Source of the DNA: Thelocarpon superellum
Lineage: Eukaryota
Direction of reading: 5' to 3'
DNA length: 48,853 nucleotides
NCBI GenBank assembly: GCA_026025795.1
Contig: JAPEUG010000098.1
Coordinates: 1 to 48,853 of the forward strand
In this document: positions 2,451 through 31,034 of the stretch, in pieces
Numbering within the stretch: position 1 is the stretch's first letter
Layout of the letters: each line of letters starts with the position of its first letter
The notes under the pieces: model-generated
The model's database searches: none
What the model saw: the letters and a program-made list of their open reading frames with translations, nothing else
Told to the model about the DNA's origin: nothing
Translations under genes and position numbers: made by a program

Positions 2451-2831
2451 GCGTGTTGTCGGTGTATCTTTTGCAGCCGGGCGGTGTTACGGGCATGGGG
2501 CGCGAGGACCGGATGGGAAACGGAGATCTGCGGTACGCTCTACTGGATTCCTCTACTACATCCAAGCAGGAGTCTGGCGTGGCGTGGGATGGTAGGGAAG
2601 ACATCGCAAGGTATGGCGGCGTGCGTTGTCGGGCAGGGTCGTAAAGCTTGGCAGGGCGCATGACGTCAATTTTGGCGCTAAGGTTCGGCGTCCAGTATTG
2701 AGCTCTATTCGTGGCTATCGGGTATCGGCCGGTGCCATAACTACTCGCATCGCATGCAAGACGGGCCAATGGAATTTCGAAGAGTTTTGGCATCGGTGAC
2801 ATACTATGCCATAGACTAGTATTCTATGCGG

Positions 2832-5800
2832 TCAAAGACCAAGCTGGGCATTATCAACGAAATGAGTCCCACCCGCACAGCGATATCCATTCTGCTGCTT
2901 GATCCATTGGAAGCCAAAAGGACACAAGCCCAGGTCACGCAGTTTCGCCTGAATCTTGGCCTCCTCGCGTCTGCGATTCTCCTCTTCTTCCCGCGCGCGT
3001 TCCAGTGCAGCGAGTGCCTCTTCTCGGGCCCGTCGTGCGACCTGCTCGCGAAGCCGCGCCTCTTCGTGTAGTCGCTTGGCCTCTTGAACTTTCGCGTCGT
3101 TGGCCGCTTCTGCCTGTTTCTGTGCGAGGTCGCTCACGCGTGCCGCTTCCGCTCGTTGGTTGTCTTGCGCTTGTTGGAGAGCGCGTTGGTGCGCCGTGAG
3201 CACTGCCTGGACCCGTTGCGCGGCCGTTGTCGCTGCCATCTGGTCGGCCTGCAGCTGTGTCCAGGTCGCGTCCGAGACGCCGGCATCGCGTGTGTCGGGG
3301 TCTGCTCCGGGAAAGAGGGGTTGTTTATCTTCGTCTGGTGGTGGAGTCTCCGTATTCTGCGCAGTGCTCGTTTGTATGTGGTGTGTGGGTCGAGGTGCCG
3401 CGTCCAGTCGCTGGAGCATTTTTTCCACAGACGGCCGACGCGCTGGATCTGGTCGGCGCCCGCACCGTGCTCGTCGTCCGGCCACCATGGTCTTGATGCA
3501 GTGCAGAGCATCATCGAAGGTGAGTGCTACGTGGGAGGAAGATGATGGAGAGGCCGAGGTAGACGTGGCGTTGATTGGGGCTCGAAAGGCCGCGCGCACC
3601 ATGTCTTTGGCCAGCGTCTGTATGTCTCGTGCATTTCCCCAGAACCCAAGACTCGCAAGCTCTCCCACGAGTCTTTCCATCTCCTGCTTTTCCTGGGATT
3701 CGCCGTTGTGGAGTGCCGTCACTCGAATCTGCTGCTTCTCGAGCGTGCGGTCCAGTAGTTGCAGGCATTGTGCTGGACTCATGTCTCGAAAGATGATCTC
3801 TTCTGCAAACCGACTGGATAATCCCGTGTTCACGGCCATGAGCTTGTTTATGTCCGCGTCGTAGCCCGCCAGGATGACGATCAACTTGCCGAAGAATTTG
3901 GGCTTGGTCGTCGCGTCGACCAGCTCGTCGATGGCCTCAGATGCAAAATGTCCTTCTGACAACCGGTATGCCTCGTCCAGGAACAGCACTTTGCCCAGCG
4001 CTTTCTCCAGCAGATTTCGCGTTTTCGGCCCCGTCTGCCCCACGAACTGTCCCACCAAATCGGACGCAGATGCCTCGATCACATCTGTGGAGGAAAGGAA
4101 GCCCATGTCGTAAAAGACCTTGCCCATCTTCCGTGCTGTCGTCGTTTTCCCCGTGCCTAAGCTATGTTAGTGGGGTAAAACGCTGAGATAGACCAGGCAG
4201 GCACGTACCTGGAGGCCCTTTGAAGACAAAATTCGTGGGGATCTGATCTCGAGGATTTAGGTCTCGTGCCTTCATCGCGCGCGCAATTTGCTGATATCCC
4301 TGGAGCTTAGCTACCACGTCATCGCAGCCAACGACGTCGGCAAAGAGCTTTTGAAGGTTGGTCGCGGCGCCAGCCTCACGGTCGAAATCGGGGTCAAAGT
4401 CCTCGGGGCCGAAGATGACGTCCAAGACGCGCTCCGGCAATGGCTTCAAGAGTTGCCGCGATTGGAAACTGCTCTTAGCTCGACTCAGGAGGTTCTCCAC
4501 CTCGCCGGCATTGCCAAAGTTTGGTCGCGCACGTGCCCGACCAAGTACATCCAGCGCCACCGCTTTGGCCTTCTCTGTGGCCTCCAGGTCTTGGTCCTTG
4601 AGCTTGAGCTCTAAAATCTGTCCGAGCTCGGCCTTAGAAAAGTCGTGGAAGTAAAAGGCCCCGTCCACAGGGAATCGTCGGGCTAGGCCGGGGTTGGAGT
4701 TCTGCAGCATCTCGAGCATTTGGTCCTCGTATCCTAGTAGGAGCACGCATCGATCGTCGCCTGGTATACTCTGGACTTCAGCGACGATGGTATCGATCAC
4801 GGCGGTTTTATACGGGTCCCCTTGATTCACTGTGCCCCCGGCCCCGCTGCTGGAAAGCATATACGCCTCGTCGATGATCAACACTTTCCCCACGGTATTG
4901 GCCAGGATGGCTTTGGTCTGGCTCTCCGACTGACCCAATGCACTCCCGATGAAATCGGCCGGATTCTTGACCACCACTGTGGAGCACCATTAAGTCTGAC
5001 GACATTTGCATGGAAAAACCCAAGAACGCACCTTCGCCGTTGCTGAGCAAGCCCAAGTCCGCCAAGATTTGGCCGTACAACTTAGCCACCGACGTCTTGC
5101 CCGTGCCCGGCGGACCGAGGAAGAACTTGTTTAACGACGTTTCCATTGGTTTTTGTTCTTTCAACTCACGCCGATAGTTGGTTTCGATGGTAGCAATCAT
5201 GGCGCGGAGGGACTCCTTGACAGCTTCGAGTCCGACGAGCTTCTGCAGCTTCTCCCACGCCTTGCTGCAGAGGATGGCAGTAGAGGGATTGGGACCAATG
5301 AGATCTTCTTTGGTCAGCTGAAAGTCATCCGGCTTCCGTCCGTCTCTGCGTTCCCGATTGAGTCGGTCGGCTTGGCGTTCGGTAATCTTGGCAAACATAT
5401 TCTGCAGAGCCCCCGCATTACCAAAGCCCGGCCGCCCTCGGCCCCGGCCGAGACGGCTTATGGCGATGCGTGCGTATAGCCCATCCATTTCGTCGGCTAC
5501 CTTCATCTTCCCGTTGTATTTTTGGAGGACGAGCTTGCCCAGCATCGTCAGGAGCTCCGTATCTTCATAGTCGGCAAACTGCAGGGTGTAAGGGATACGG
5601 CGTGGGATTCCAGGGTTGTGTTCGAAGAATGTCTCCATCTCGCGATTGTACCCGGCGAAAATGAAGACCATTTGACCCATCCTATTCTCCATCTCGGCCA
5701 GCAAGAAATCGAGAACTGACTTCCCGCCGAGATTGTGGGGCGCCGTCATTTGATAGGTCTCATCGACAAACAGCGCCCCTCCTCCTGCTTTCTCAATCTC

Positions 5801-8800
5801 CTGCAAATGTTTCATCAATTCTGGGACGCCGCCATTGGCGAGACGAGAACCCGTAGTCTCGATGAAGGCATTTCCAGGCAAAACATCGACCAGGCTCAGG
5901 AACTTGGCGTAGAGACGCGCCACGGTGGTTTTGCCGGTCCCCGGATTGCCTAGCAAGGCCGCATTGAATCGCTCCTTGCTGAGACTGGTACTTTGGCGCG
6001 TGGTGGCATCGACTTTCGCCTTGATGCGTAGGACCTGCGATTTGACCTTTTCAAGACCGATCATGTCCATGATCGAGTCGATGGCGGCGTTGCGGACGTT
6101 TTCCACCTCCTTTTGGCGGCGCCATTCTCGTTCGGCGGCTGATTTCTGCGGAGTCAGTTGAGTACGACGTGCCTCACGCGGTGGCGGTGGTTGCGGCGTC
6201 GCGGGTGCAAGTAATCCCCCCTCTGCTTCGTCGTCTTTGTCTGGTGATGTCTGGCCCTCGGTGGACGCCGAGTCTTCCGTAGACGTCGAGGATGACATGG
6301 GGATCTTTTGAGCCCTGGCTACCGCAAGGTCTGCTTCTTTCTGCTTGATAGCATCCGCACGCTCTTTGATCAGCCGGCCGTCCTTCTGGGCCTGCACTTG
6401 GGCGTCTAATTGCTCATCCAAATGCTGCATCTGTTTTGCGTGCTCGGCGCGCGCGGCATCTTCTTTCTGCTGCCGCTGAAACGCTTGTTCTTGCTTCCGC
6501 TTGAAATTAGCAGCCTCACGGTCGCAAATACGACACGACAACGGACGCTTTCGGTGGCACCGCCATTGTTCTGGGTGACCATTCGGACAATTTCCGTACA
6601 ACACAGATTCGCAGGGTATCTTGGAATGGTCACGCAGCGGATGACATCGTTTTGGGCAGGCGTGCAGGCCGCAACTGAGCATCGTACCACTGGACAGCAT
6701 CATCAGCGTCATGCTCATGGGTAACGGAAAGGCGAAGTGGGGGGACCGGGGAACACACCAGGGTTCCTTGCAGCCGCCATCGGGACACTCCTCATCAAAA
6801 TCCTCCGGGCGGCGTAACAGTGCCGTGCGATCGTGGTGTTGTTCACATCTGACCGGAAGTCCTTCATAGATGCCTCCTCGTTGACGAAGAAGATCAAAGA
6901 AGCGAGTCCAAGCCTCCTTTCCTTTCCGGGCGTGCAAGAAGGTCTCGGCGTGTCCGATCATGATGAGAGCGTTTCGTGCGCGTGAGAGGAGCACATTCAA
7001 TCGCTCGGGTTCTGCCATGAAGCCGATGTTACAAGATGGGTTGCTTCGGGTCAGAGTGGCGATGACAATGTCGCTCTCTTCTCCTTGATAATTGTCTGCG
7101 GTGGAGCACAGGATCATGCCAGCGTCAGCGGAATGGCACAGATGATCTAACATTAGCCATGCGGTAGTTACTTACCAATGGTGGCGATCCGGATGGATCG
7201 CTCGGTTAGATCCGCTTTCATGGGCGAGCGCAGGCCCGCCCCTACGAGATCGGATGAATCTCGGTCATTGAGTACAGGGTCATTGTCTTTACTCAGCAAG
7301 TTTCGGAGAAGACTGAGTTGGCCTAGGTAGGGAGTAAGCACGACCATCTTGTCCTGGCCATAGCCTTGCTGCGCCAGATAGCGCAGGCATTTCAACACCA
7401 TGGATCCCTCAAAGCTATTCTGCTTGGACGAGCCTCGGCCTTCTTGATCCTTGATCTGCGGCTCATCGTTTTCCGGGGAGGAGTGGTTGACAAAGACGAC
7501 GTTGGCGTGTACGCCGCGGAGATCCGGTCGTCCGAGGGTCCCGGGCGCGTCTAAGAGCCCCGGGTAGGTCATGTGGCGCACAAGGGAGGAGATCTCGGGA
7601 CGCATGCGGTGCTGTTTGGACAAGGTATGGTGGGGAAAGCCCTTCAATATCAGTCGCTCGAACAAGGAGCGATTCAGATCGAAGCCTTCCCCTCTCTCCA
7701 CGCTAAGACGGTGATTGTTGATCTTCGGCCGCAGCTGCTTGTGGTCCCCGATGAGGATCATCTGCGATGTCTTCCATCCGAGCGCCGTGAGAACGTGGCT
7801 CTCGAGGATCTCACCGGCTTCCTCCACTAGCAGGACATCGGGACACGCAATTTGTAAATCATTGACATACATTGCGGCCGCGGTCGTGGTGCATCCGATG
7901 ATGCGTTTGTTCCGCAAGACGCAGGGGACTTTTTGGCCAAAGCATTCCTTCAGCTGATCGACATGATTGTTGTAGTCGCCGATCATCCGGCTCAGGTCCT
8001 TCACACGCTCCTTCCGGATCGCGAGAATCCACTGGTCGCGCACGACGAGCCTCGCGGCGTGGTCCATGTCCCAGATCCGGCGGGAGGTGGGGGCGATTTG
8101 CTCAGCGAAGATGCCGGGGTTCAGCCCCTGACTCCATCGATCGAATAAGTAGAAACGATCGACCACTTTACCCTTTCGCCCTATCTGGGTCATCCCCACG
8201 GCCGCCCCGGGGACAGTCAAGCCGTCGTAGAAGAGGCAGTCCTCAAACTCCAAGTAGTGCATCAAAGCCAGCTTTTGCACGGCCGATGATTGATATCGTG
8301 TAAGTGACGTGATCAGCTGCCTCCTTAGAAAGTCCAGCCTGGATTTGAGGATATCAAGTTCTCGCCGCGACTGTTTACTGCCTCTGAAGGTGAATGACTG
8401 CGCGGCCATGCCCAGTGGCTCTGTCCGTGTCGTAGACTTGCTACCTAGGCGCACTAAGCTCTCGGGTGGAATGCCGATGTCAAGTAGATCCTCGAGAAAT
8501 TGATCGAGCGCGTGGTTGGTGTAGCAGACGACCAAGATACGCTTATCGGTGGTATCATGCAGAATCTTGGCCAGGAGGGCGCCGATGAAGGACTTGCCAG
8601 TACCTAGAAAAGGGTAGAATGAGCCCAAGCGTCCTCGTCTTTGCTCCGACATTACTTACCTGGCGGCCCTTGGATCAGGCTCACGCCATCGGCCAGTCCG
8701 GCGACGAGCGAGTCGGTCTGTGACTCGTCTAGCTGCACTGATATCGTCGTCTTGAAGACCTTTTGCAGCTCCACCGACGGCGGGGCTGCGCGAATGCGGT

Positions 8801-10151
8801 CGATAATGGGGCCCGGCGCGTCCGGGGATGTTCGCATGGGACGTGTCGGATGCCAGGCGAGCAGCTGCTCAAGCAGTGGGAGGTGGGTTATCTCCTGTAA
8901 ACGGGTCAAGACCGGGGCATAGGCAAAAACTGCGGTGTCGATCTGCACCAGCCGTATCTGCTGGGCCGTCGGCAGCTTGAGGAGGAGGTGGGCGACGGTG
9001 GCCAGGACGTTGAATTCTAAGACGATGATGGGTGGCTCGAGGGCGAGGAGATCCAGTTTGCGATTCACGGTCGCGAAGGTGACGACCACGCCATCGACGA
9101 CCAGGCAAGCCAAGGATTTGTGTCGGAACAGACTAGGATTTTTGTCAAGGTGGGCCTTGCGTGACTTAATACTGCCCTTTCTTAGGCCGGGAAAATCGGC
9201 AGCGCACTGGAATTGCAGGGCCCAGGGATAATATTTGTCCGGCTCGCTGTCCATGCCGCGTAGCCTCAGGCCAGATACCTGGAGTCCTCTGTGTCTCTCC
9301 TGCTTCTCGCTCAGGACGCCTAAAAGCTCTTCGCGGAGCTGACTGAGCATGTCCTCCCGGAACAGCCGAAATTGATTCTCCAGGTGCAGAGCCAGACGTG
9401 AACCGGTGTGGGCCGGGTCATCGAGGGCGTCGGCCAGGCGGAGGAAGGGAGGCTCCGTTGAGGCGAGCTCGTCGGCAGTGGGGAGGATGGCGACGCATCT
9501 AAAATCGACGTGATCGTTGTCGTGTCGTCCCCCTGGCCCTGCTTCACCCTCAAGCGAGGCTGGGGTATCCAAGGTGGCGAGGCGATTTTTGATTCTCTGA
9601 CCGAACACCCGGATCTCGAGGTGTGGGGAGCCCAGGAGCATTTCGCGGTTGGTAAGGTCTTGAGCCAGACCATGGTACTGTTCGGACTGCTCGGCTGGCA
9701 GCGAGAGCAGCTCGTAGAGCAGCCAGGCAAAAGCTTCGGTCCCACGTTGGTGCAGGCGGCCTTCCCAATACGCCTGGACGAAGGCGTCCCAGAAAATAGG
9801 TGGCTGCACGATGGGCACGATGATCTGCCGTAGTATTTGCCCCCCACTGATGGCTTTGAGCGATGGCGGCCGGAGATATTGGAGCAGATCAGTGGCGGGA
9901 CCATTGAGGAAGACGGGGGTGAGATCGAAACGCATGCACGCTTGCACTGCGGCCAGCCCAGCCTTGCTCGACACCAGGCCATAGATGGACGAGGACGGGT
10001 CGGGCTGGGCGCAGATGGCCTCGATGAAAAGTTTGCCTCTCTGGGCGGCTTGCACCACTTGATTTCCCGAGAGCACGGCTTTGAAGAAGGCTGTCAGTCG
10101 CGTCACGCGGAGATCGGCATCAGGCTGCGGGGTGGCCATGGGGGCGGACAT
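2832..10151 (-). CDS. ZNFX1-like SF1 (Upf1-like) helicase with NF-X1 zinc fingers fused to three CbbX/SpoVK-type AAA+ ATPase domains, 2335 aa, 6 exons
   Basis: Exons 10151-8660, 8603-7176, 7095-6759, 6689-5032, 4976-4209 and 4156-2832 are joined by GT-AG introns and give 7008 nt in frame. Helicase motifs: GRHDND..FR..ILPTADEL, QFRLFREDM, GPPGTGKS, YTNHALDQ, VEEAGE, IGDHKQL, SLFERL, QHRMRPEI, TIDNYQGEE, RLNVLLSRAR. A Cys/His cluster lies at about 6530-6845. Three further P-loops (GNPGTGKT, GPPGTGKT, GPPGTGKT) each have a DE(T/A)Y Walker B and GNA motif. Alternative start at 10139. Confidence 0.9.
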
Positions 10152-10601
10152 GATATTCAGCGGAGGCAATTGGGCTCGACAGCAGCTTCACGGCGTGATG
10201 GAGCAGACGAGAGTGTCAAGTGGAATCAGGTCTCTCGACCGATGGCGAGGGACGGGAAACGGGGCGTATCAGGTACAAGTAGTAGGTACAGTACTTGTGC
10301 GGCTCATCCTCCACCATGCCCCGTGCCCCATGCCCCACTCCATCCATGGGTCGGCATGCAGCCCCTGCACGTCAGTCGTGGCGGCTCGTGGTTCGGTGAG
10401 ATTCCTTCTCCTCATCTGCACCCGCCCGATCTCGTCCTGGGGAGGGCTCTTTCCCCCTCCAGCGGTCAATGCCTAGGACGGGCGGGGGTTTCTGTCACGC
10501 CCCATATCCTCGTCGCCCCCCGCTGTGTTGAGCCTGATCGCTCAAACGGTCTCGCTACCACTTCACATCGGGCACCTGTCCTATTTAAAATCAACGGATT
10601 C
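10152..10601. promoter_or_regulatory. Probable bidirectional promoter of the helicase-AAA and nuclease-fold genes
   Basis: 450 bp separate the two divergent ATGs, with an AT-rich TATTTAAAA at 10582-10590. Function is inferred from geometry only. Confidence 0.5.
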
Positions 10602-12138: not shown

Positions 12139-12654
12139 TGGATGGCCGGATGCTCCACACCAGCGCCAGAGAATGTTATGGTTGTAGCACAGTTGACGGG
12201 CCCTTGCAGCGATCTTGCACATTCGTCCACTGTAACAGCATGTTGACGACCTATGGACTGGAGGAGACACACGCAGCCGACCGAGAACCTCAAGCGGTGG
12301 CATCACCGACTGGAAAGGCGAAAGCGCCGCCAGATGCTATCGATAAGTCGACAGATGATCCGCTAGACTGTATGGGGTTAGCTCGCACTAGGCCCAATCG
12401 ATCATGCTCCACCGTTCCTCCAGGCATCCTCGTTCGATGCTCGTGCGGTGTCGGTGCACGAGGACAGCAGTCACCATTATCACCAAGCTTGAGGCGTCGA
12501 TCCTATCGATCCTATCGTCCGTCATTTCTGTCAGTCGCTATTTGCATTCACTTATCCGCCCCCTCGATCGGCCACACCGCCCGCACCGTCGCTGCTGGTG
12601 AAGGCACATCGGTCCTCAACGAGCTGCTGCGACCGCAACGCTCGCCGTGTCACC

Positions 12655-15097
12655 ATGCAGTTCGCCCCATTTGCCTCGGATATTGAGCTCCCCTTTTACA
12701 CCTCGCTCGCGTCGCATAAGATTAACCATGACAAGCTCGACGACTCCGCCCGGCGGCTGCTCGGTCTCTACGAGGTTCGACCCAACGACGTACCGGAGGC
12801 AAGCTGTCGCATGCAGATCTTGGGCAACGCCTTGACCAGCGACGAGTACGTGCGCCGCATTCCCGTCCCATCTCCTCAAGCTCCGGAGCAAGTATGCTGA
12901 TCTCCAGTTGGATAGAGTCCTGGCCGGATGCTGTCGTGCGGAAGGGATCATCAAGAATGTCAATACCGTCGAGGAATACCGTAACATGGACAAGGCAGCC
13001 GTGCTGCAGCAAGCCGGACGGACGGTAAACCGCCGATACCATATCTCACCGATACGGCGAGACTGACACATATCACGCGTGGTAGATTTGGGATGCCATC
13101 ACCGACGGCACCATCTTCTCGTGCCCCTCGCTCCTCGCCTCCTTCTCGGTCATCTCGTACGCGGACCTCAAAAAATATCGATTCACCTACTGGTTTGCCT
13201 TCCCCGCCTTACATTCCGATCCCCCCTGGAAGCCCGATGCCCTGCCCGAGGGGGAACCGCCGGCACGCTTGTCAAACCAGGAGACCGCGAGCCTAGTGGA
13301 GAAGGTGCAGACGTGGCGCTACAGCGTTGATGCACGTCAGCATGGCTTTTTTCTGGCCAAGAAGGTTCGCGCATCCAAGGAGGCCTCGCGCGAGCTAGGT
13401 GCGTCTCCGCCGGGATCCGACGAGGCCCGAGACAAGACGACGCCGACGACGCCAAGCACGCCGGGCCAAGCGCTCAGCTTCACGTGGAACGTGTCCACAT
13501 TGGCGGCATTTGAGCAGGGCTTCGCCGAGGGCGTCGACCCCCAAGACTTCTTTGTGGCCTTTGCCGATCCGTCCACCTACCCGCAGCACCCAGGATGGAT
13601 GTTGCGCAATCTGCTGGTCCTGATCCGACAGCGCTGGGGACTGGATCGGGTCCAGGTCTTGTGCTACCGCGATGTGCAATCCCGACGCGACGAGGCGCGC
13701 AGCATCATTCTCAGCTTCTCGTCGGATCCGCCCGCGTCCGCGTCCACGGCCAGCTCGACGCCACCCCCCATGCCCAAGGTCACGGGCTGGGAGCGGAACA
13801 AGGATCGGAAGTTGGGCAGCAAAACGGCCAATCTGGCGGAGTATCTGGATCCACAACGGTACGCGGGATGTGTTCTATCGGATCACATTCGTGATGTGCT
13901 GACCGCGTCATCAGATTGGCCGATCAATCGGTCGACCTCAACCTCAAACTCATGAGATGGCGGATCGCGCCAGATCTGGATCTTGACAAGATCAAGAACA
14001 CCAGGTGTTTATTACTCGGCGCCGGCACGCTCGGCAGCTATGTGGCGCGGAATCTACTGGTGAGGAATCGGCGCACAGAATGACGTCGAGAAGGAGTGCT
14101 GATGACACAGGGCTGGGGCGTACGAAAAATCACCTTTGTCGACAACGCGACGGTCTCCTTTTCCAACCCGGTACGACAGCCGCTGTTCGACTTCAAGGAC
14201 TGCTTGGCGGGCGGCGCCAAGAAGGCCTTTCGGGCCGCCGAGGCCCTGACGGAGATTTACCCGGGAGTGGACTCGGCGGGGCACGTCCTGTCGGTGCCGA
14301 TGGCCGGGCACCCGATCACGGACGAAGCCAAGACCAAGGCGGAGTTTGAGACGCTCCAGCAACTGGTCGCGGATCACGACGTCATCTTCCTGCTCATGGA
14401 CACGCGCGAGAGTCGCTGGCTACCAACGGTCATGGGCAAAGCGGCGGGCAAAATCGTGATGAATGCCGCGCTGGGCTTCGACAGCTACGTGGTGATGCGG
14501 CACGGGGTGAAGAACACCGCGGCGCCGGAGGAGGAACTGGGCTGTTATTTCTGCAACGACGTCGTGGCACCTGCCGACGTACGTTGAGCCTCCCTCCCTG
14601 AATTCGCCCACATGGTCGCTGACGTGTCCTCCCAGTCCATCAAAGACCAGACGCTGGACCAGCAGTGCACCGTAACGCGACCCGGCATCGCGGCCATCGC
14701 ATCCGCATTACTCGTGGAACTCTTCGTCTCCATCCTGCAGCACCGGCTCGGCCCGCTCGCACCGGCCCCCACGTCGCCGCATGAGGACCGCGGCAGGCAC
14801 CCACTGGGAATCATACCACATCAGATCCGGGGCTTCCTCGCCTCCTTCCAGAACATGCTCATCCAAGGCCGCAGCTACGACTGCTGCAGTGCCTGCTCTG
14901 ACCGGATCGTGGATGCCTATCGGACCGACGGATGGGCGTTTGTGAAACGCGCGCTTAACGAGAAGGGCTATGTTGAGGAACTGTCGGGCCTGGCGGAGGT
15001 GCAGAAGGCAGCGGAAAAGGCGGCGGCCGATGTCGAGTGGGATGATGAAGGCGGGATTTTGGCGGGCGAAGACGAGGGCGAGGGGGAGTTGATCTAG
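12655..15097 (+). CDS. ATG7: Autophagy E1-like enzyme Atg7
   Basis: Exons 12655-12845, 12916-13024, 13086-13858, 13915-14059, 14111-14578 and 14636-15097. Motifs: [55 protein letters not shown], and the catalytic [12 protein letters not shown]. Confidence 0.97.
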
Positions 15098-23404: not shown

Positions 23405-23777
23405 GGTGTCGGGGTGGAGCGCCCTCGATGGATCGAGTGACTGGAGATAACGGTGTACGATTCCAAGAACGGAAGAGGGTCTGCTCGGTGCTGCGAGTGT
23501 TGACAAACACCTCGAATGGGTTTAGCGGGCTAAGACGCCGATGACATAAGCGAGAGGGTGAATGAAATCACTGGGTAAGCGAGGGTGCGGTGACAGGTGA
23601 GGACAGATTATGGATTCGCGTGACAGCAAGGACGAAAGTTAAGAGCCAAGTTGCAGGTCAAGCAGTGCGGGTTCCAGCCGGAGTAGCAGGACGGCAGAGC
23701 TTCCATTTCTTCCACGTGGTGCCCAGGACACCGGCAGGCCTCCTCGAAGGCCTCATCGAACCCCCCGCTCCCTCACC

Positions 23778-24890
23778 ATGAAGTTGGTGCAGACTCTGGT
23801 CCTGGGCCTGCTGCCGTGGACGGCTTTGGCAGCGAAGAAGTCGACGGTGACGACCGACGACCGGTTCGCGCAGTATCACAGCCAATCCCTCTCCGCCGGA
23901 CCATTGAAGCTCGACGAGGCCAGCTTTGATGACCTGACCGCCGCACCGCGCAACTTCTCCGCCGCCGTCTTGCTCACGGCCCGCGGCGACCGCTTTGGCT
24001 GTGTGCTCTGCCGCGAGTTCCAGCCGGAGTGGGACTTGCTGGGCAAGAGCTGGGCCAAGGGGGACAAAGCCGGCGACTCCAACGTCATCTTTGGCACCCT
24101 GGACTTTAACGACGGCAAGGGTCCCTTTCAGAAACTGCAATTGCAGACCGTCCCCATCCTCGTCGTCTATCTCCCGACCGTGGGAGCCCATGCGGCGGCC
24201 AGCCCGGATCCCGTGCGATATTCCTTTAGCGACGGGTAGGTCACGTCTGGACCACGCGACGTTCCAAGGAGACGGACTGATGACGAGATGTGCAGGCAAG
24301 GTAGTATCGACAAGGTGCATGGCTGGATCTCGCGCCAGCTGCCCGAGGGTCCTCGACCACCCATCGTACGCCCCATCAACTACCTCCGCATCGTCGTCGT
24401 AACGACGGCGGTGCTGGGCGTCATCACCTTCGTCAGCGTCGCCGCCCCATACATCCTCCCCGTCGTGCAGAATAAGAACCTATGGGCCGCCACGACCCTG
24501 ATCGCCGTCCTGTTGTTCACCAGCGGTCATATGTTCAACCACATCCGCAAGGTTCCCTACGTCGCGGGCGACGGAAAGAACGGAATCAGCTATTTCGCCG
24601 GGGGCTTCCAGAGTCAGTATGGCCTAGAGACGCAAATCGTCGCCGCCATGTGTGAGTGTCCCGGAAAGTCCCCGAGGCCGTCTTGCATGCTCACGCTGAC
24701 GATCGCAGACGGCGTGCTTGCCTTTGCCACCATTTCCCTCGCCATGAAAGTCCCTCGCATGTCAGATCCGCGCGCACAGCAGGTGGCCGTTTTTGCCTGG
24801 TCCGCCGTTATGCTCGGCATGTATAGCTTCTTGATGAGTGTCTTCCGGATCAAGAACGGAGGATATCCCTTTTACCTACCGCCTTTCTGA
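23778..24890 (+). CDS. OST3: Oligosaccharyltransferase gamma subunit (Ost3/Ost6 family)
   Basis: Signal peptide, thioredoxin-like CVLC, SGHMFNHIRKVPY, QYGLETQI, and C-terminal FRIKNGGYPF. Introns 24236-24295 and 24652-24708. Confidence 0.93.
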
Positions 24891-24913
24891 ACGGAGGCTG
24901 CTGAAGGGGATGG

Positions 24914-25017
24914 GACGGAGGAGAGACGGAGGAGAGACGGAGGAGAGACGGAGGAGAGACGGAGGAGAGACGGAGGAGAGACGGAGGAGAGACGGAGGAG
25001 AGACGGAGGAGAGACGG
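24914..25017 (+). repeat. 11-bp minisatellite (GACGGAGGAGA) x9 plus a partial unit
   Basis: Nine perfect units at 24914-25012 plus GACGG, starting 23 bp after the OST3 stop. Confidence 0.97.
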
Positions 25018-25255
25018 TTGAAAGCGACGAGCGGAGAGAGGGGCCGTCACCGGTGGAGCACAATGTAATCTAGAGCGTTGGTCGCACTGATTACTCGACT
25101 GGGAGTCTGATACGTTAGCGTTAGGAGGGCGATGGAGAGACGTAGGCATTCTGGCAGGACTTGAGATTGGTGTGATCGTGGCGTGACGGGAGCTCTTCCC
25201 GAGCCAACCGCAGTGTCCAGTCCTCGTACCACGTCGTCTTCACCAACATGGCGAG

Positions 25256-27194
25256 ATGGCCAACACGGCAGACACGACGGAGTCTGTCACGGAGGCTGCC
25301 GCGTCGGCCGATTCCCCATCCTTGCTGTCGTCCTCGGCCCAAGGCGCCTCCTACTTGATCCTGCTGCAGATTCTCTCCCGCTTCCTCACCTTCACCGTCA
25401 ACCTCCTCCTGCTGCGATATATCCACCCCGAGCTCCTCGGCATCACCGCCCAACTGGAAATCTACCAGACCTCCGTCCTCTATTTTGCCCGCGAGAGCTT
25501 GCGCATCGCCATTCAGCGGCAGAGCGATGAGGCCGAGGAAACCACGGAGATCGGGCGAGCCAAGAAGGGCTCTCACGTAGGGCACAAGGATGGTGGTGGC
25601 GTGGTTGGCAACACCCCGGCCGGACGGTCACAGGCCGTGGTCAACCTGGCCTATGTGTCCATCGGTCTCGGCGTCCCCTTCGCCGTCGCCTTGGCTGCCC
25701 TCTACCTACGCTCGCAGGCTGGAGAGCCCGTCGTGCTCGCCCGAGCATGGCTCCACGAGTCCGTCTACGTCTACGGCCTGGCCGCCCTGGTGGAGCTGCT
25801 GACGGAGCCGTGCTTCGTCATTGTGCAGCAGAAGATGCTCTACCGCATCCGTGCGGCGGCAGAGGCCACCGCGACGATCCTCCGAGGCCTCATTACCTGC
25901 GGCCTGACCATCCTCGCGGCCAGGGAGGGCACGGAATTCGGGGCACTGCCCTTTGCCGTGGGCCACCTGAGCTATGCTCTCATCCTGGGCGTCATCTACT
26001 ACTGGCAGGTGTCTGGGGTGTCACGAAGCAGCGGTTTCTCCTTGTGGTGCCGACAGATTGCGTCGAGGTAGGCCAACACCCACGATTAAGGGCGTCCACT
26101 GATCCGGGAGACAGTGACCCTGCTCAATACGTACTCTCGTCCTTCTCCCGGCCCTTGCTCTCCGTCGGTGCTAGTCTCTTCGCCCAGTCCGCCATCAAAC
26201 ATGTCCTGACCCAAGGCGACGCGCTCCTCATCGGCACGCTCTCGACCATCCACGACTCAGGCATCTACGGCATGGCGTCCAACTACGGCGGCCTGATCGC
26301 ACGGGTGATTCTCCAACCAATCGAAGAAAGCTGCCGGAACCTGTTCTCCAAGCTCCTCTCGACGAACGGCCCCTCGGAGAAGCCCCATTCCGCGGCCCTC
26401 CATGCCGCGCGAAGCATCCTGCAGGACATCATCCGGGTTTACCTGACGCTCTCCATCATCGTGGCGACCTTTGGGCCCATCGTCGCACCCTTGCTGCTCC
26501 GGCTGGTGGTGGGGCCGCGCTGGATCGAATCCGGCGCGGGCGCGGCCCTGTCCACATACTGCTACTACATCCCCGTGCTAGCGCTCAATGGCGTGACGGA
26601 AGCCTTCATCGCCAGCGTCGCCACGCCCGCCGATCTGCAGGAGCAATCGCTATGGATGCTGGCCTTTTCTGCGGGCTTTGCCGTCTCGGGCTATGTCTTC
26701 CTCCGGGTGCTTCAGTGGGGCGCCCAGGGGCTGGTGTGGGCTAATGTCGCCAACATGCTGCTACGGGTGATCTGGAGCGGGCGATTCATCGCGCGCTATC
26801 TGTCATCGTCATCTCCGCCATCGACGTGCTCATCGTCAGAAGGGCGCAGCTCAAACGGTGCACCAATCCAATGGGCACAGATCCTGCCCAGCGGGACCAG
26901 CATCGCGTCAGGTGTCGCCACGTCTGCGATACTGGCACGCATGAATCAGGGCGGGTATTTGAGCAGAGGGGCGATTATGGATCTTGTGACGGTCGCGCAG
27001 GTCGCGGTGCCGTTTCTTCTGCTCTTGTACGTCTCCTCTCCTCTCGTCGCTCCCGCTCCTCCTATCTACAAGGCCGTTGAGAGCTAACGACGCACAGGGC
27101 CTTCTTGGAGCGCAACTTCCTCCGACATTGCTACCACCGCATGCGACCACAGGAGAAAACTCAGGAAAAGGAAAAGGAGAAGAAGGAGATATAG
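25256..27194 (+). CDS. RFT1: Rft1 lipid-linked oligosaccharide translocation protein
   Basis: Exons 25256-26067, 26115-27026 and 27098-27194. Motifs: GASYLILLQILSRFLTF, YFARESLR, KHVLTQGD, SNYGGLIAR..QPIEES, LALNGVTEAF, GLVWANVANM. Confidence 0.95.
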
Positions 27195-27248: not shown

Positions 27249-29120
27249 TCAGTCGTCAAACTTGATCTTAACAGCAGCCTTGACCTCGCCGGCCTCCGGC
27301 GCCTTGTAGAAATTCCCGTACGCCTCGTGCGTCCTCTTCTTGACGGCGCCACCAAACTTCAGCAAGTCAGGCGGGACGGGCTGGTTCGCGGCGCGGAGGA
27401 CATTGATCAGGGCACCGGACAGCGCCTTGTCGTGCTCCGTGAACAGCGTGATGGCCGTGCCGGGCTGGCCTGCGCGCCCTGTGCGCCCGATGCGATGCAC
27501 GTAGTCCTCCACCGTCAGCGGGAACGTGAGGTTCAGAACGAGCTTGACGGCGGGTATGTCCAGGCCGCGCGCCGCGACGTCCGTGGCCACCAGGACGGTG
27601 GCCGCGCCGGACTTGAACGCGCCCAGGCTCGCGGTCCGCTGTGCCTGCGAGAGGTCGCCGTGGATGGAGGCCACGCGCAGCGCGGTCCGCGCGCGCAGAA
27701 GCGCCTCGATCCGCGTCGCTTCTTTCTTGTACAGGCAGAAGACGAGGATGCGGTCGTTGCGGAGTGGCCCGGCTTGGTACGTCTTGAGGAGGGCGAGGAG
27801 CCGGGCCTGCTTCGCTTGTGGGTCCAGCACTTCGACGCTTTGCGTGATTCGCCCGTTCGCGCGTAGGTCGCCGCTGGGGTTGTTGTCGCCGATGGCGATC
27901 TTGATCGGTGAGATCATGAATGTCCCGGCGAGGTCCCGAACCGAAGGCGGCCACGTCGCGGTGAACATGAGGGTTTGTCGCTTGCTCGGCCCAGGTGTCG
28001 TGCTGATGATTTTGCGGATCTCGTCTTCGAAGCCTGTGCTTGTGGCGTTAGATTTGACACGAAGGGAGGGGGGAGAAGAGGGAGAGGAGGATGGATGGGG
28101 GAGGCGGTGCGGACCTTTGTCTAGCATGCGGTCCGCTTCGTCAAGGACCACGTAGCCTACTTTGCTGAGATCCGCCACGCCCTCGTTGATGAGGTCGTTC
28201 AAGCGTCCCGGGGTGGCGATAACGATGCTCGCCGTTCGGAGCGCCGTGCGTTGCTCGTCTTTGGACACACCGCCGTACACGCACACGGCCCCGAGCCCAG
28301 CGGGCGTAGCGAGCTTGACGACTTGCTCGTGGATCTGCATCGCCAGTTCTCGCGTCGGAGAGACGATCAAGGCTCGAACTCCTCGTGCTCTCTTTCCTGG
28401 CTGGTCGCCTCCAAGGGACTGTATATATCGGATGCACGGCACGGCAAAGGCCAGCGTTTTTCCTGACCCTGTCTCCGCTACTCCAACCACGTCTCGTCCA
28501 GAGAGTAGGAACGGCCATGCTGCCGCTTGGATGGGTGTCGGAGATGAGAATCCCTGGAATGGGTTGCCCGGGATTGTGTTCTTGTTTGGGAGGTGGGCAA
28601 AGGCGGTGATGGGGCGAAGTGGGGCGAAGGCCGATTTGGGATCGCTGATGGTGATGAAGTGTTCGGAGAGGTAGGCGTCGATATCGCTCTGAGGGAGGTG
28701 TGCGAGGGCGGGCTCTTCGACGTAGCCCGACGCGGAAACATGGCCGTTGCTCGGGGGCTTCTGCTGAGACTCCTTGTCCGTGGGCGTGACTGGTGCTGGG
28801 ACTGACGTATGATCCTTCTTGGCCATTTTCTTCTTCGGCCTCACCTCCATGGCCTTGATCTCCTCAACCTCCATCGCGTGCCGATTAGTCTCGACCGCAA
28901 TATGCTTGGCGGATATCTCCAAGTCTGTGGCAGCCTTGCGCAATTTCCTGAGCCTCTTCCCTTCTCTGCGTTGCTTCTTCAATGCCTTTTCGTCCGTCTT
29001 GACATCTGACCTGCCGCTCTTCCGTTCCTCTTTGCGACTCTTCTTGCTCGCGCGAGACTCGCTCACCGAGCCAGTCTTCTCCACTCCATTTGATACGTCG
29101 TCCAGAGTGCGTTTGCCCAT
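27249..29120 (-). CDS. DBP3: DEAD-box RNA helicase Dbp3 (ribosome biogenesis)
   Basis: Lys-rich N-terminus, [46 protein letters not shown], and C-terminal [20 protein letters not shown]. An 81-nt in-frame intron lies at 28034-28114. Confidence 0.95.
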
Positions 29121-29237
29121 TTTATGTTGGTAACTGGGTCCTCGATGAATTATCTCCTCTACAGCTCAGCAAGAAAATCAATCCGCCCGTAGTGGGACAT
29201 GCGGATTAATGTTTTACCGAACGCCGTGCCGTACCGA

Positions 29238-30749: not shown

Positions 30750-31034
30750 GCTCTCCATGCTCACCTTCACCATCACCTTTATCATCTTCACCGTCACCTT
30801 CGCTTCACATGGGCAGGACGACTCCCTGTAGGGCAGGTCTAATGCAAAAGCGTGTGCTTGATCCATGCTCGGTCATGACAGACAGAAAGGCAGACAATTC
30901 GGCCGACCGACAGGATGCGACTAGGTACGAATTCCAGTAGATTCCCAGTGCCCGCAGGTGCCTTGTTCCCTGTTCTCCTCGTAGACGCCAAAACCACCCT
31001 CGGATTCCCGCCACCATGTCCCGCCACACTCCAC

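What the first reader, a model, noticed from the sequence alone, without database searches (positions are those of the whole stretch)
2832..10151. Four P-loop domains in one chain: SF1 helicase, NF-X1 fingers, coiled coil, three CbbX-type AAA+ modules, coiled coil and a Cys/His cap
Seen: the domain order and all four Walker A/B sets. Established: metazoan ZNFX1 ends in an RZ-finger E3 module; CbbX/SpoVK/EccA AAA+ proteins are mainly bacterial or plastid hexameric remodellers; the immune giant RNF213 couples tandem AAA+ modules to an RZ finger. Inference: the ZNFX1 C-terminus has been replaced here by three AAA+ units, so two chains could build a six-module ring switched on by helicase binding to RNA.
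Basis: partly seen in the sequence, partly recalled or inferred. Interest (0 to 1): 0.72.

Follow-up and report, generated by a model that had tools for sequence, protein, structure and literature searches.

The report
Fungal ZNFX1-like helicase, triple AAA+ fusion
One 2,335-residue fungal gene joins an RNA helicase, of the kind animals use to sense viral RNA, to three protein-remodelling ATPase units; the family is widespread in fungi, but I found no study of what it does.

Summary

- **Domain order:** ZNFX1-like N-terminal region, SF1 helicase, short NFX1-type Cys/His stalk, long helix, three CbbX/SpoVK/EccA-type AAA+ modules, helical hairpin, C-terminal Cys/Cys/His cap.
- **Not a mis-join:** one uninterrupted 787-codon frame links the end of the helicase to AAA1. 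108 of the 120 listed homologues are 2,200-2,450 aa, by their names from Ascomycota and Basidiomycota. All four Walker A lysines and Walker B acidic pairs are kept in 107-109 of 109 sequences.
- **Closest relatives:** the helicase is nearest to human ZNFX1 (E 1.3e-45; next is Aquarius, 1.2e-16). The AAA modules are nearest to CbbX, EccA1 and SpoVK.
- **Age:** each AAA position forms its own clade, so the trio predates the Ascomycota-Basidiomycota split.
- **Interpretation partly supported:** no RZ or other E3 module was detected. The "two chains, one six-module ring" idea gets no support. In a structure prediction of a homologue, AAA2-AAA3 sit like the stacked D1-D2 pair of Hsp104/Rix7/p97. 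Only AAA3 keeps the pore-loop aromatic.

Function is untested, and seven literature searches listed no description of the family. It is a new variant of a known kind, of moderate interest.

The parts
2832..10151 (-). Whole CDS: 6 exons, 5 GT-AG introns (8604-8659, 7096-7175, 6690-6758, 4977-5031, 4157-4208), 2,335 aa plus stop
   Evidence: Junctions restore conserved motifs. The same intron positions are seen in L001 and in truncated ORF fragments of relatives.
8742..10151 (-). N-terminal region, aa 1-470, with no Pfam family. Aa 212-423 (window 8883-9518) match ZNFX1 residues 414-614. Holds the invariant GGRHDND motif at aa 207-214.
   Evidence: 0 families; 9q9z_A E 8.9e-6
6881..8744 (-). SF1 (Upf1-like, ZNFX1-type) helicase core, aa ~470-1045. 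Walker A GPPGTGKS at aa 495-502 is split by intron 1. Motif II VEEAGE is at aa 757-762.
   Evidence: ZNFX1 E 1.3e-45; Aquarius 1.2e-16; MkoA 8.3e-36
6518..6841 (-). Cys/His cluster, aa 1059-1143, interrupted by in-frame intron 3. Contains one canonical NFX1-type finger (CGLHACPKRCHPLRDHSKIPC) flanked by two further Cys/His knuckles.
   Evidence: Pfam zf-NF-X1 only E 0.083. The AF2 model of the equivalent part of P0001 matches the ZNFX1 structure: Foldseek E 4.2e-4, 94 columns, 29% id; VIA Z 3.7, 98 aligned, chain residues 1248-1364.
6302..6520 (-).
   Evidence: Equivalent to helix 30-108 of the P0116 model, pLDDT about 70-83. That it forms a coiled coil is inferred.
6122..6301 (-). Poorly conserved, probably disordered linker, aa 1216-1275
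   Evidence: Mean identity 0.20 over aa 1201-1250, rising to 0.42 over 1251-1300. pLDDT is below 50 at residues 109-150 of the P0116 model.
5261..6085 (-). AAA1, aa 1288-1562. Walker A GNPGTGKT at 1333-1340, Walker B DE at 1395-1396, Arg finger R1450. No pore-loop aromatic. The sensor-2 position is Gly here, where 107 of 109 sequences have Arg.
   Evidence: (CbbX 1.5e-28, aligned over chain residues 22-260 of 289)
4357..5251 (-). AAA2, aa 1566-1845, interrupted by intron 4. Walker A at 1611-1618, Walker B DE at 1674-1675, Arg pair R1738/R1739, AAA_lid_6. The sensor-2 position is Gly in 109 of 109. No conserved pore-loop aromatic.
   Evidence: VIA gives CbbX Z 21.9, rmsd 2.9 A, 267 aligned, mostly over this module of the P0116 model.
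3555..4350 (-). AAA3, aa 1848-2095. Walker A at 1892-1899 is split by intron 5. Walker B DE at 1955-1956. Pore loop DLVGQFVGQT (aromatic in 109 of 109). Arg finger R2010 and sensor-2 R2071 are each kept in 109 of 109.
   Evidence: (EccA1 3.5e-23, CbbX 5.8e-22)
3300..3554 (-). Poorly conserved Ser/Pro-rich linker, aa 2096-2180
   Evidence: pLDDT below 50 at residues 1007-1060 of the P0116 model
3246..3293 (-). Conserved motif RD.GVSD..W.QLQ.D, aa 2183-2198; role unknown
   Evidence: R, D, G, V, W and L invariant in 12 of 12
2940..3245 (-).
   Evidence: Helices 1069-1117 and 1124-1167 of the P0116 model
2835..2930 (-). C-terminal cap, aa 2304-2335: G.C..G..W.....GYRC.GG.H, lying 8-17 residues from the C-terminus. 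Predicted as three short strands plus a helical turn. Only three Cys/His ligands are conserved.
   Evidence: strict pattern in 101 of 120, with 9 more carrying an RC.AGGH variant. No Pfam or PDB sequence match at E<=10.

Best explanation
Shown: window 2832-10151 (minus strand) is one intron-containing fungal gene. It belongs to an old, conserved family of about 2,300-aa proteins whose named members, read by genus name, are all Ascomycota or Basidiomycota. The N-terminal 1,140 residues are a ZNFX1-type unit: a ZNFX1-like pre-helicase region, an Upf1-like SF1 helicase with all motifs intact, and a short NFX1-type zinc stalk. The C-terminal 1,050 residues are three complete CbbX/SpoVK/EccA-type AAA+ modules, all with intact Walker A, Walker B and arginine fingers. 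These are followed by a helical hairpin and a family-specific Cys/Cys/His cap. No ubiquitin-ligase module was detected.

Inferred: the protein is an RNA-binding machine whose output is ATP-driven protein or RNP remodelling, where metazoan ZNFX1's output is ubiquitylation. The helicase engages RNA and brings chains together. The AAA+ part then assembles into rings of like modules stacked in tiers, as in type II AAA+ proteins, with AAA3 as the substrate-gripping tier and AAA1 and AAA2 as assembly or regulatory ATPase tiers. By analogy with ZNFX1 in animals, ZNFX-1 in C. elegans and Hrr1 in fission yeast, the likely field of action is RNA surveillance, silencing or defence.
For: One gene:
- The frame 4808-7171 (787 codons) runs uninterrupted from the last helicase motif into AAA1.
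- 108 of the 120 listed homologues are 2,200-2,450 aa. Four that I checked have the same Pfam order.
- Intron positions recur in L001.
- Of 148 representatives found with exon 1, the best BLAST match ends at model residue 495-519 in 94, at 970-984 in 14 and at 1080-1089 in 3.

ZNFX1 type:
- The best solved relative of the helicase is 9q9z_A at E 1.3e-45; the next is 1.2e-16.
- Aa 212-423 match ZNFX1 414-614 at E 8.9e-6.
- The zinc region matches ZNFX1 1248-1364.

CbbX type:
- NCBIfam and PDB searches.
- VIA gives Z 21.9, rmsd 2.9 A, 267 of 290 residues aligned.

All four ATP sites are conserved in 107-109 of 109 sequences. The arginine fingers are kept in 109 of 109.

Age: AAA1, AAA2 and AAA3 each form a clade with 100 SH-aLRT support. 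The tree used 23 of the 109 aligned proteins, picked by me: the window, 12 Ascomycota and 10 Basidiomycota.

Stacking:
- In the P0116 model (pLDDT 82.2, pTM 0.62), residues 450-1006 (AAA2+AAA3) align as a pair to Hsp104 (Z 18.2, rmsd 4.7 A, 465 aligned), ClpC (5.1 A, 454), Drg1 (Z 19.1, 6.1 A, 478), Rix7 and Sec18.
- Division of labour: the pore-loop aromatic is present in AAA3 in 109 of 109 (Y103, F5, W1). In AAA2 it is V57/H24/A16/Y10, and it is absent in AAA1.
Against: - No transcript or protein data exist for this gene, and no member of the family has been studied, so every functional statement is analogy.
- The stacking argument rests on one AlphaFold2 monomer model of a homologue about 52% identical to the window protein, not of the window protein itself.
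- That argument concerns only the AAA2-AAA3 pair.
- The two-module matches have rmsd 4.7-6.8 A and Z values below the single-module CbbX match.
- AlphaFold2 may simply reproduce the commonest tandem arrangement in its training set.
- The window's AAA1 lacks the sensor-2 arginine that 107 of 109 relatives keep.
- The neighbouring genes are housekeeping and give no functional hint.
- The three AAA positions are as far from each other (21-28% identity) as from eight bacterial single-module proteins (27-35%), so their origin is unresolved.
Confidence: 0.5

Rival explanations
1. One reading: two chains place their 3+3 AAA+ modules side by side in one planar pseudo-hexameric ring, as dynein or RNF213 do within a single chain. 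Helicase binding to RNA switches the ring on.
For: - Three modules per chain is half of six.
- The modules follow each other without flexible linkers (pLDDT about 90 throughout residues 160-1000 of the P0116 model).
- Every module keeps an arginine finger that could act on its neighbour.
- ZNFX1 dimerises through its N-terminal domain, according to passages of bioRxiv 2025.10.14.682297.
Against: - The predicted AAA2-AAA3 geometry matches stacked D1-D2 pairs.
- A planar ring would hold only two aromatic pore loops out of six.
- I recall no solved precedent for a 3+3 planar AAA+ ring.
Confidence: 0.12
2. The AAA+ modules do not thread substrates. They act as nucleotide-dependent assembly switches that drive or dissolve higher-order polymers or condensates of the helicase on RNA, comparable to the polymers reported for ZNFX1.
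For: - ZNFX1 forms filaments and polymers (abstract and passages of bioRxiv 2025.10.14.682297; figure legend of PMC13710534).
- Two of the three modules lack a pore-loop aromatic.
- Long helices and disordered linkers flank the AAA block.
Against: - AAA3 keeps the complete CbbX-like motif set: DLVGQ[YF]VGQT loop, Walker A and B, arginine finger and sensor-2 Arg, the last two in 109 of 109.
- All three modules keep hydrolysis residues under strong constraint.
Confidence: 0.2
3. Annotation artefact: two adjacent genes, a ZNFX1-like helicase and a triple AAA+ protein, wrongly joined by the exon model.
For: No RNA evidence could be obtained. Atlas clusters show stand-alone Ascomycota AAA + AAA_lid_6 proteins of 895 and 1,049 aa.
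Against: - The helicase end (DNYQGEESDIV, NVLLSRAR), the zinc stalk, the long helix and AAA1 lie in one open frame with no stop (4808-7171).
- 108 of the 120 listed homologues are full length.
- No stop and no start context separates the halves.
Confidence: 0.02

Closest known systems
Metazoan ZNFX1 (PDB 9q9z; human innate-immune RNA helicase and E3 ligase), and its relatives C. elegans ZNFX-1 and S. pombe Hrr1
   Same: - Upf1-like SF1 helicase that is by far the best solved match (E 1.3e-45).
- Homologous pre-helicase segment.
- NFX1-type zinc stalk directly after the helicase.
- A large insertion between Walker A and motif II.
   Different: - The zinc stalk is short: about 85 residues with one canonical NFX1 finger.
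- No RZ finger or Miz-like E3 domain was detected.
- About 1,050 residues of AAA+ modules, a helical hairpin and a cap stand in their place.
- The N-terminal 200 residues have no detected match to the ZNFX1 armadillo domain.
CbbX (red-type Rubisco activase, PDB 3syk/3syl/3zuh), EccA1 (PDB 9lur), SpoVK (TIGR02881)
   Same: - Each of the three modules is a full unit of this clade: N-terminal helix with the (I/V)GL..VK motif, AAA core and AAA_lid_6-type lid.
- The best NCBIfam and PDB matches are these families.
- VIA gives Z 21.9, rmsd 2.9 A, 29% identity.
- The AAA3 pore loop DLVGQFVGQT aligns with CbbX DLVGQYIGHT.
   Different: - Scores are far below the equivalog cut-offs (182.9 bits against 422.95 for SpoVK), so none is an orthologue.
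- There are three modules in tandem in a eukaryotic chain fused to a helicase, whereas the eight bacterial relatives fetched are single-module.
- AAA1 and AAA2 lack the pore-loop aromatic, and AAA2 lacks the sensor-2 arginine.
Type II AAA+ unfoldases with stacked rings (Hsp104/ClpB, ClpA/ClpC, p97/Cdc48, Rix7/NVL, Drg1, NSF/Sec18)
   Same: The predicted relative placement of AAA2 and AAA3 superposes on their D1-D2 pairs (450-480 residues aligned, rmsd 4.7-6.8 A, Z 13-19). One tier is specialised for substrate contact.
   Different: - Sequence relation is remote (p97 E 4e-6 against CbbX 1.5e-28).
- There are three tiers rather than two.
- No solved chain aligned over all three modules in the top 50 of either list.
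RNF213 (giant immune E3 with a six-module AAA ring and an RZ finger)
   Same: Only the general theme: a giant multi-ATPase protein that shares a module type with ZNFX1.
   Different: - Its AAA modules are dynein-like, six in one planar ring, with only some active (recalled).
- Here there are three CbbX-type modules, all with intact sites.
- No RZ finger was detected, and RNF213 did not appear among the fold or sequence matches listed.

Membership tests
ZNFX1-type SF1 helicases | Upf1-like SF1 helicase core (AAA_11 + AAA_12) with intact motifs I, II, III, IV, V and VI | tested here: met
   Pfam. GPPGTGKS, VEEAGE, GDHKQLRP, QHRMRP, TIDNYQGEE and NVLLSRAR are conserved. Counts for motifs I and II are 107-109 of 109.
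ZNFX1-type SF1 helicases | Closer to ZNFX1 than to other Upf1-like helicases | tested here: met
   9q9z_A E 1.3e-45, against Aquarius 1.2e-16 and Upf1/Nam7 about 1e-10 to 3e-11. The pre-helicase segment also matches ZNFX1 only.
ZNFX1-type SF1 helicases | NFX1-type zinc fingers following the helicase | tested here: met
   - Pfam zf-NF-X1 is below its cut-off (E 0.083).
- The C-x-H-x-C-x3-CH-x5-H-x4-C pattern is present and conserved.
- The fold model's only significant Foldseek match is ZNFX1 (E 4.2e-4, 29% id over 94 columns); the second is FAP-80S chain 7zw0_sh at E 0.17.
- VIA support is weak (Z 3.7).
ZNFX1 proper (metazoan orthologues) | C-terminal E3 module: RZ finger plus Miz-like domain | tested here: not met
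   No Pfam family other than AAA and its lid lies C-terminal of the zinc stalk. No PDB sequence match for the Cys region or the cap at E<=10. The spacing of CPNGH-x5-C-x7-C-x2-C recalls my memory of the RZ pattern, but no tool supports it.
CbbX/SpoVK/EccA clade of AAA+ | AAA core plus AAA_lid_6-type lid, with these families as best matches | tested here: met
   - AAA1: AAA 2.5e-13, lid_6 9.1e-7.
- AAA2: lid_6 8e-10.
- AAA3: AAA 9e-10. Its lid is not reported by Pfam, but the SpoVK profile is covered to position 237 of 261.
- PDB sequence searches.
- Structure: Z 21.9.
CbbX, SpoVK or EccA as orthologues (NCBIfam equivalogs) | Score above the curated equivalog cut-off | tested here: not met
   Best score is 182.9 bits against cut-offs of 422.95 (SpoVK), 466.65 (EccA) and 459.25 (CbbX).
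Active AAA+ ATPase modules | Walker A Lys, Walker B Asp-Glu and arginine finger in each module | tested here: met
   K1339, K1617 and K1898 in 109 of 109. D1395/E1396 and D1955/E1956 in 109 of 109, D1674/E1675 in 107 of 109. R1450, R1738/R1739 and R2010 in 109 of 109. Actual hydrolysis is not testable with these tools.
Type II (stacked-ring) AAA+ architecture | Tandem modules placed one above the other, with rings formed by like modules of six chains | tested here: inconclusive
   The AAA2-AAA3 pair of the monomer model superposes on D1-D2 pairs. The AAA1-AAA2 geometry and the oligomeric state could not be read out.
RNF213/dynein-like single-chain planar AAA ring | Consecutive modules side by side in one ring | tested here: inconclusive
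   No such chain is among the 50 rows. Chains over 3,000 residues were not aligned, and a family that is not listed is not excluded.

The most novel reading that the evidence does not exclude
Fungi carry a counterpart of the animal RNA sensor ZNFX1 in which recognition of foreign or aberrant RNA (mycovirus, transposon or failed RNP) is coupled to a three-tier AAA+ unfoldase rather than to ubiquitylation. That would be an RNA-triggered protein-unfolding immune or surveillance effector of a kind not yet described. The invariant Cys/Cys/His cap behind the helical hairpin would be a new metal-binding or catalytic end module that closes or targets the assembly.
Probability: 0.15. Interest if true: 0.8.

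Novelty: new variant of a known kind. Interest (0 to 1): 0.5.

Why it matters
ZNFX1 is a human disease gene, and its mechanism is only now being worked out: a helicase joined to an unusual E3 module. The fungal family keeps the ZNFX1 sensor half but carries a quite different, fully conserved ATP-driven output half. That makes it a natural experiment on what the sensor half does and how it is coupled to an effector.

It would also be, as far as I recall, the first three-in-a-row CbbX-type AAA+ assembly. It shows that this supposedly bacterial or plastid AAA+ clade has an old, conserved eukaryotic use.

The family is large: 2,382 scored hits and 1,115 50%-identity clusters for the N-terminal exon alone. 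By genus names it occurs in fungal pathogens, lichen fungi and wood decayers. Seven literature searches listed no study of it.

Tried and rejected
- **Expression:** The look-up of sequencing runs for window 2700-10300, kind rna. No RNA holder was listed, so read laying was not used and splice sites rest on comparison only.
- **Whole genome:** none is held for this window.
- **Earlier findings of this scan:** nothing by sequence, words or place.
- **Complex prediction:** three copies of the AAA3 module of P0116 with ATP gave 'no answer', score 0.00 against a mark of 0.42, and controls were not run. This is neither for nor against self-association.
- **C-terminal cap, by sequence:** no Pfam family and no PDB sequence match at E<=10. 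The atlas gave no usable hit.
- **C-terminal cap, other contexts:** a word-based search among 242-770-aa proteins found 11 hits, all last-exon fragments of the same family. Among 771-2,200-aa proteins it found none. In 185,579 prokaryote genomes the cap pattern was confirmed only in L001, which is itself a fungal-type contig. So I could not place the cap in any other protein context, but the searches need shared exact words and are weak evidence.
- **RZ lead:** the third Cys/His knuckle (CPNGH-x5-C-x7-C-x2-C, aa 1120-1141) resembles my recollection of the RZ-finger spacing. Nothing supports this: no Pfam or PDB sequence hit, and RNF213 is not among the fold matches listed. The RNF213 preprint passages I read gave no spacing to check against. 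Dropped to a lead.
- **Origin of the three modules:** the tree with eight bacterial sequences is a star. It cannot say whether the trio arose by internal duplication or by separate acquisition. The tool also warned of long-branch attraction between the AAA1 and AAA2 groups.
- **No three-module match:** no solved chain aligned over all three modules in the 50 rows.
- **PADLOC:** the helicase matches Mokosh MkoA (8.3e-36). I read this as general Upf1-like similarity, not membership of a defence system.
- **Literature:** searches. 'ZNFX1'+'CbbX' and 'CbxX'+'fungal' each returned 0 papers. The others listed nothing that describes the fusion, judged from titles and abstract starts only. bioRxiv supplements are closed, and I did not open the PMC paper's supplements; ZNFX1 alignments there might include fungal sequences.

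Full report
**1. What is in the sequence**

Between window 2832 and 10187 the minus strand carries five long open frames in series: 511, 495, 787, 275 and 444 codons. They join through five short GT..AG introns of 56, 80, 69, 55 and 52 nt into one 7,008-nt coding sequence of 2,335 codons. The ATG lies at 10151 and the stop at 2832-2834.

Each junction restores a motif that is conserved in an alignment of the product with 108 full-length homologues: GPPG|TGKS, IATI|DNYQGEE, CKEP|CG, NGE|VVVKNP and GPPG|TGKT.

The plus-strand ORFs in the region have no Pfam match (0 of 8). The window has no N and 55-64% G+C. No prokaryote genome is held for it. Its other genes are ordinary fungal housekeeping genes: ATG7, a short-chain dehydrogenase, an FtsJ methyltransferase, OST3/6, Rft1, a DEAD-box helicase, RPA1, a UBP-type deubiquitinase, an Isu/NifU scaffold, CSN3, RPL18 and a mitochondrial carrier.

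**2. Is it one gene?**

The frame 4808-7171 is 787 codons without a stop. It contains the last helicase motifs (DNYQGEESDIV, NVLLSRAR), the Cys/His cluster, the long helix, AAA1 and the start of AAA2. The link between the two halves therefore does not depend on any splice. Intron 3 lies in this frame, is 69 nt long and has no stop.

A search with exon 4 among longer proteins scored 2,382 hits at E<=0.001 among 7,999 candidates. Of the 120 listed, 108 are 2,200-2,450 aa long; the other 12 are shorter or longer models that align to parts of the product. By my reading of the source names, about 34 are Ascomycota (lichen-forming classes, Onygenales, Chaetothyriales, Leotiomycetes, Dothideomycetes, Pezizomycetes, Geoglossomycetes), about 81 are Agaricomycetes, and 5 are unnamed.

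The best hit is only 60% identical. It comes from Chaenotheca gracillima, class Coniocybomycetes. Four homologues that I scanned have the same Pfam order: AAA_11, AAA_12, three AAA stretches, AAA_lid_6.

Intron positions are shared:
- Locus L001 breaks at model residues 1085/1087, 1638/1639 and 1890/1902.
- Of 148 representatives found with exon 1, the best BLAST match to the product ends at residue 495-519 in 94, at 970-984 in 14, at 1080-1089 in 3, and at 2330-2335 in 9. These are ORF calls that stop at introns 1, 2 and 3.

No RNA data could be had (see Tried and rejected).

**3. The helicase half**

- Pfam finds AAA_11 (2.1e-14) and AAA_12 (2.5e-17 and 3.8e-14).
- The best solved relative is human ZNFX1, 9q9z_A, at E 1.3e-45. 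Aquarius follows at 1.2e-16 and Upf1/Nam7 at about 1e-10 to 3e-11.
- The 497-aa first exon has no Pfam or NCBIfam family. Its residues 212-423 nevertheless align to ZNFX1 414-614 (E 8.9e-6, the only hit at E<=1). This stretch includes the invariant GGRHDND motif.
- Motifs I and II are kept in 107-109 of 109 sequences. The other helicase motifs are marked conserved.
- PADLOC matches the Mokosh helicase MkoA (8.3e-36). I take that as general Upf1-like likeness.

Behind the helicase lies an 85-residue Cys/His cluster with 16-17 conserved Cys/His. Pfam's zf-NF-X1 model reaches only E 0.083, and no PDB chain matches by sequence. I folded the equivalent part of P0001 (residues 1040-1165) with 34 homologues (pLDDT 85.6).
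- Foldseek's only match at E<=0.001 is the ZNFX1 structure (E 4.2e-4, 94 columns, 29% identity, rmsd 4.3 A).
- The second match is chain 7zw0_sh of a FAP-80S complex at E 0.17.
- VIA aligns model residues 2-102 to ZNFX1 1248-1364, right behind its helicase core, but weakly (Z 3.7, rmsd 4.6 A, 98 residues).

**4. The AAA+ half**

- All three modules hit SpoVK, EccA and CbbX as their best three NCBIfam families. Exon 4 gives 5.8e-54, 1.4e-45 and 7.9e-44, with the next family at 1.5e-6. Exon 5 gives 2.8e-20 to 1.6e-16. Exon 6 gives 3.7e-38 to 1.1e-32. All scores lie far below the equivalog cut-offs.
- In the PDB, AAA1 matches CbbX at 1.5e-28 over residues 22-260 of 289, and EccA1 at 7.9e-21. p97 reaches only 4e-6. 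AAA3 matches EccA1 at 3.5e-23 and CbbX at 5.8e-22.
- Walker A Lys, Walker B Asp-Glu and the arginine fingers are kept in 107-109 of 109 sequences in every module.

The modules differ in two ways:
- The pore-loop aromatic that aligns with CbbX's DLVGQYIGHT is kept only in AAA3 (Y103, F5, W1). AAA2 has V57/H24/A16/Y10 and AAA1 has none.
- The sensor-2 arginine is kept in AAA3 (109 of 109) and AAA1 (107 of 109), but is glycine in AAA2 (109 of 109). The window and its nearest relative P0001 are the two sequences with glycine in AAA1.

The modules of the window protein are 21-28% identical to each other and 27-35% identical to eight bacterial single-module proteins.

I built a tree of 77 rows: three modules from each of 23 proteins that I picked out of 109, plus the eight bacterial rows. 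Each position is one clade at 100 SH-aLRT. Relations among the three clades and the bacteria are unresolved, and the tool warns of long-branch attraction. The trio therefore predates the Ascomycota-Basidiomycota split, and its origin is open.

**5. Architecture of the AAA block**

P0116 is a 1,199-aa database fragment that equals product residues 1112-2335 at 52% identity. I folded it with 44 further rows: relatives and the three window exon pieces (pLDDT 82.2, pTM 0.62). The three modules are confident and continuous. The model also shows:
- a 79-residue helix before AAA1
- disordered linkers before AAA1 and after AAA3
- a helical hairpin
- a small three-stranded cap

The best structural match is CbbX (Z 21.9, rmsd 2.9 A, 267 aligned). 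The next-best matches align AAA2 and AAA3 together onto the D1-D2 pairs of type II AAA+ proteins:

| Protein | Z | rmsd (A) | Residues aligned |
|---|---|---|---|
| Drg1 | 19.1 | 6.1 | 478 |
| Hsp104 | 18.2 | 4.7 | 465 |
| ClpA | 17.4 | 6.0 | 457 |
| ClpC | 16.1 | 5.1 | 454 |
| Rix7 | 16.2 | 6.2 | 465 |
| Sec18 | 12.9 | 5.7 | 450 |

No chain in either list of 50 aligns over three modules, and none is a planar single-chain ring. That type II proteins form stacked hexameric rings, and that CbbX and EccA form hexamers, is recalled textbook knowledge rather than a tool result.

But it rests on one predicted monomer of a homologue, and on one pair of modules.

**6. The C-terminal cap**

The last 32 residues read G.C..G..W.....GYRC.GG.H. 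The strict pattern occurs in 101 of the 120 listed homologues. Nine more carry an RC.AGGH variant, and the rest are truncated or altered. The pattern always ends 8-17 residues before the C-terminus. Only three Cys/His positions are conserved, which is one short of a usual zinc site; a fourth ligand may come from elsewhere or from a second chain (inference). No family, solved structure or other protein context could be found for it. A second conserved motif, RD.GVSD..W.QLQ.D, precedes the hairpin.

**7. How it probably works**

Shown: domain identities, intact catalytic motifs, age and breadth of the family.

Inferred from ZNFX1:
- Passages of bioRxiv 2025.10.14.682297 and PMC13710534 describe an auto-inhibited helicase opened by RNA, a rigid zinc stalk, polymerisation, and an E3 output. 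The preprint also mentions Hrr1 and C. elegans ZNFX-1 in RNAi.
- By analogy, the fungal helicase half binds RNA and brings chains together.

Inferred from the CbbX clade and the model: the AAA block forms rings, with AAA3 gripping a polypeptide and AAA1 and AAA2 acting as assembly or regulatory ATPases. The output would be remodelling of a protein or RNP rather than ubiquitylation.

I put 0.5 on this reading as a whole: near certainty on what the gene is, about even odds on remodelling as the output, and less on stacking.

Rivals:
- planar 3+3 ring (0.12)
- assembly switch without threading (0.2)
- mis-joined genes (0.02)

**8. Novelty**

The proteins sit in public databases under generic names: 'P-loop containing nucleoside triphosphate hydrolase protein', 'NFX1-type zinc finger-containing protein 1', 'CbxX/CfxQ family protein'. 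The architecture can therefore be seen by anyone who runs a domain scan.

Seven full-text searches listed no paper describing it. I judged the listed papers by title and abstract start only. The two ZNFX1 structure papers contain no word starting with 'fung' and no 'AAA+'.

I rate it a new variant of a known kind. Interest is moderate (0.5): a conserved, unstudied four-ATPase giant that offers a comparative handle on ZNFX1, but with no functional evidence yet.

Noticed in passing
L001:1-4332 (contig NYXK01000109.1, 122 kb, titled 'MAG: Deltaproteobacteria bacterium isolate CPC1'): This locus carries an intron-containing orthologue of the window gene. Identity is 44-67% per exon, it includes the C-terminal cap, and its exon breaks fall at the same three positions as window introns 3-5. 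The contig therefore looks like a fungal contig binned into a bacterial genome.
   Followed up: partly
window 8604-8659 and 4157-4208: Introns 1 and 5 both split a Walker A motif at the same place and phase (GPPG|TGK, after the first base of the Gly codon, CCAG|GT). They do so in two unrelated P-loop folds: the SF1 helicase and AAA3. The AAA2 Walker A has no intron. The shared CCAGGT reads like a proto-splice site, suggesting two independent intron gains.
   Followed up: no
window about 5411-5413 (aa 1512): The sensor-2 position of AAA1 is Gly (codon GGG) in the window and in its nearest relative P0001 (Chaenotheca gracillima). The other 107 of 109 aligned sequences have Arg. This is a lineage-specific change at an otherwise nearly invariant ATPase residue.
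   Followed up: partly
window 6690-6758: Intron 3 is 69 nt long, in frame and free of stops. If it were retained, 23 residues would be inserted in the middle of the NFX1-type finger.
   Followed up: no
homologues listed: Several Agaricomycetes carry two or more copies, some apparently on the same contig because the contig lengths are equal. Marasmius crinis-equi has adjacent locus tags V5O48_011177/011178; Mycena, Hysterangium, Gautieria and Favolaschia species also have pairs. This hints at local duplication.
   Followed up: no
P0144 (1,044 aa), P0244 (1,370 aa), P0246 (1,928 aa): These shorter database forms keep the N-terminal/helicase part and the cap but lack some or all of the zinc stalk, AAA1 and AAA2. 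I could not tell whether they are real reduced paralogues or exon-skipping gene models.
   Followed up: partly
protein atlas: Ascomycota clusters of stand-alone AAA + AAA_lid_6 proteins of 301, 895 and 1,049 aa exist. CbbX-type modules, some probably in tandem, are therefore common in fungi outside this fusion.
   Followed up: no
module tree: P0092 (Clarireedia, Leotiomycetes) and P0115 (Microsporum, Onygenales) pair at 99-100 SH-aLRT in all three module clades, against the expected class relationships. This could reflect paralogy, transfer or mislabelling.
   Followed up: no
window 12493-15094, 23643-27084, 27252-29165, 30842-32755, 36233-38161: The neighbours are core housekeeping genes: ATG7, OST3/6, Rft1, a DEAD-box helicase, RPA1 and a UBP14-like deubiquitinase. 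The gene therefore sits in an ordinary chromosomal region with no cluster of related functions.
   Followed up: partly
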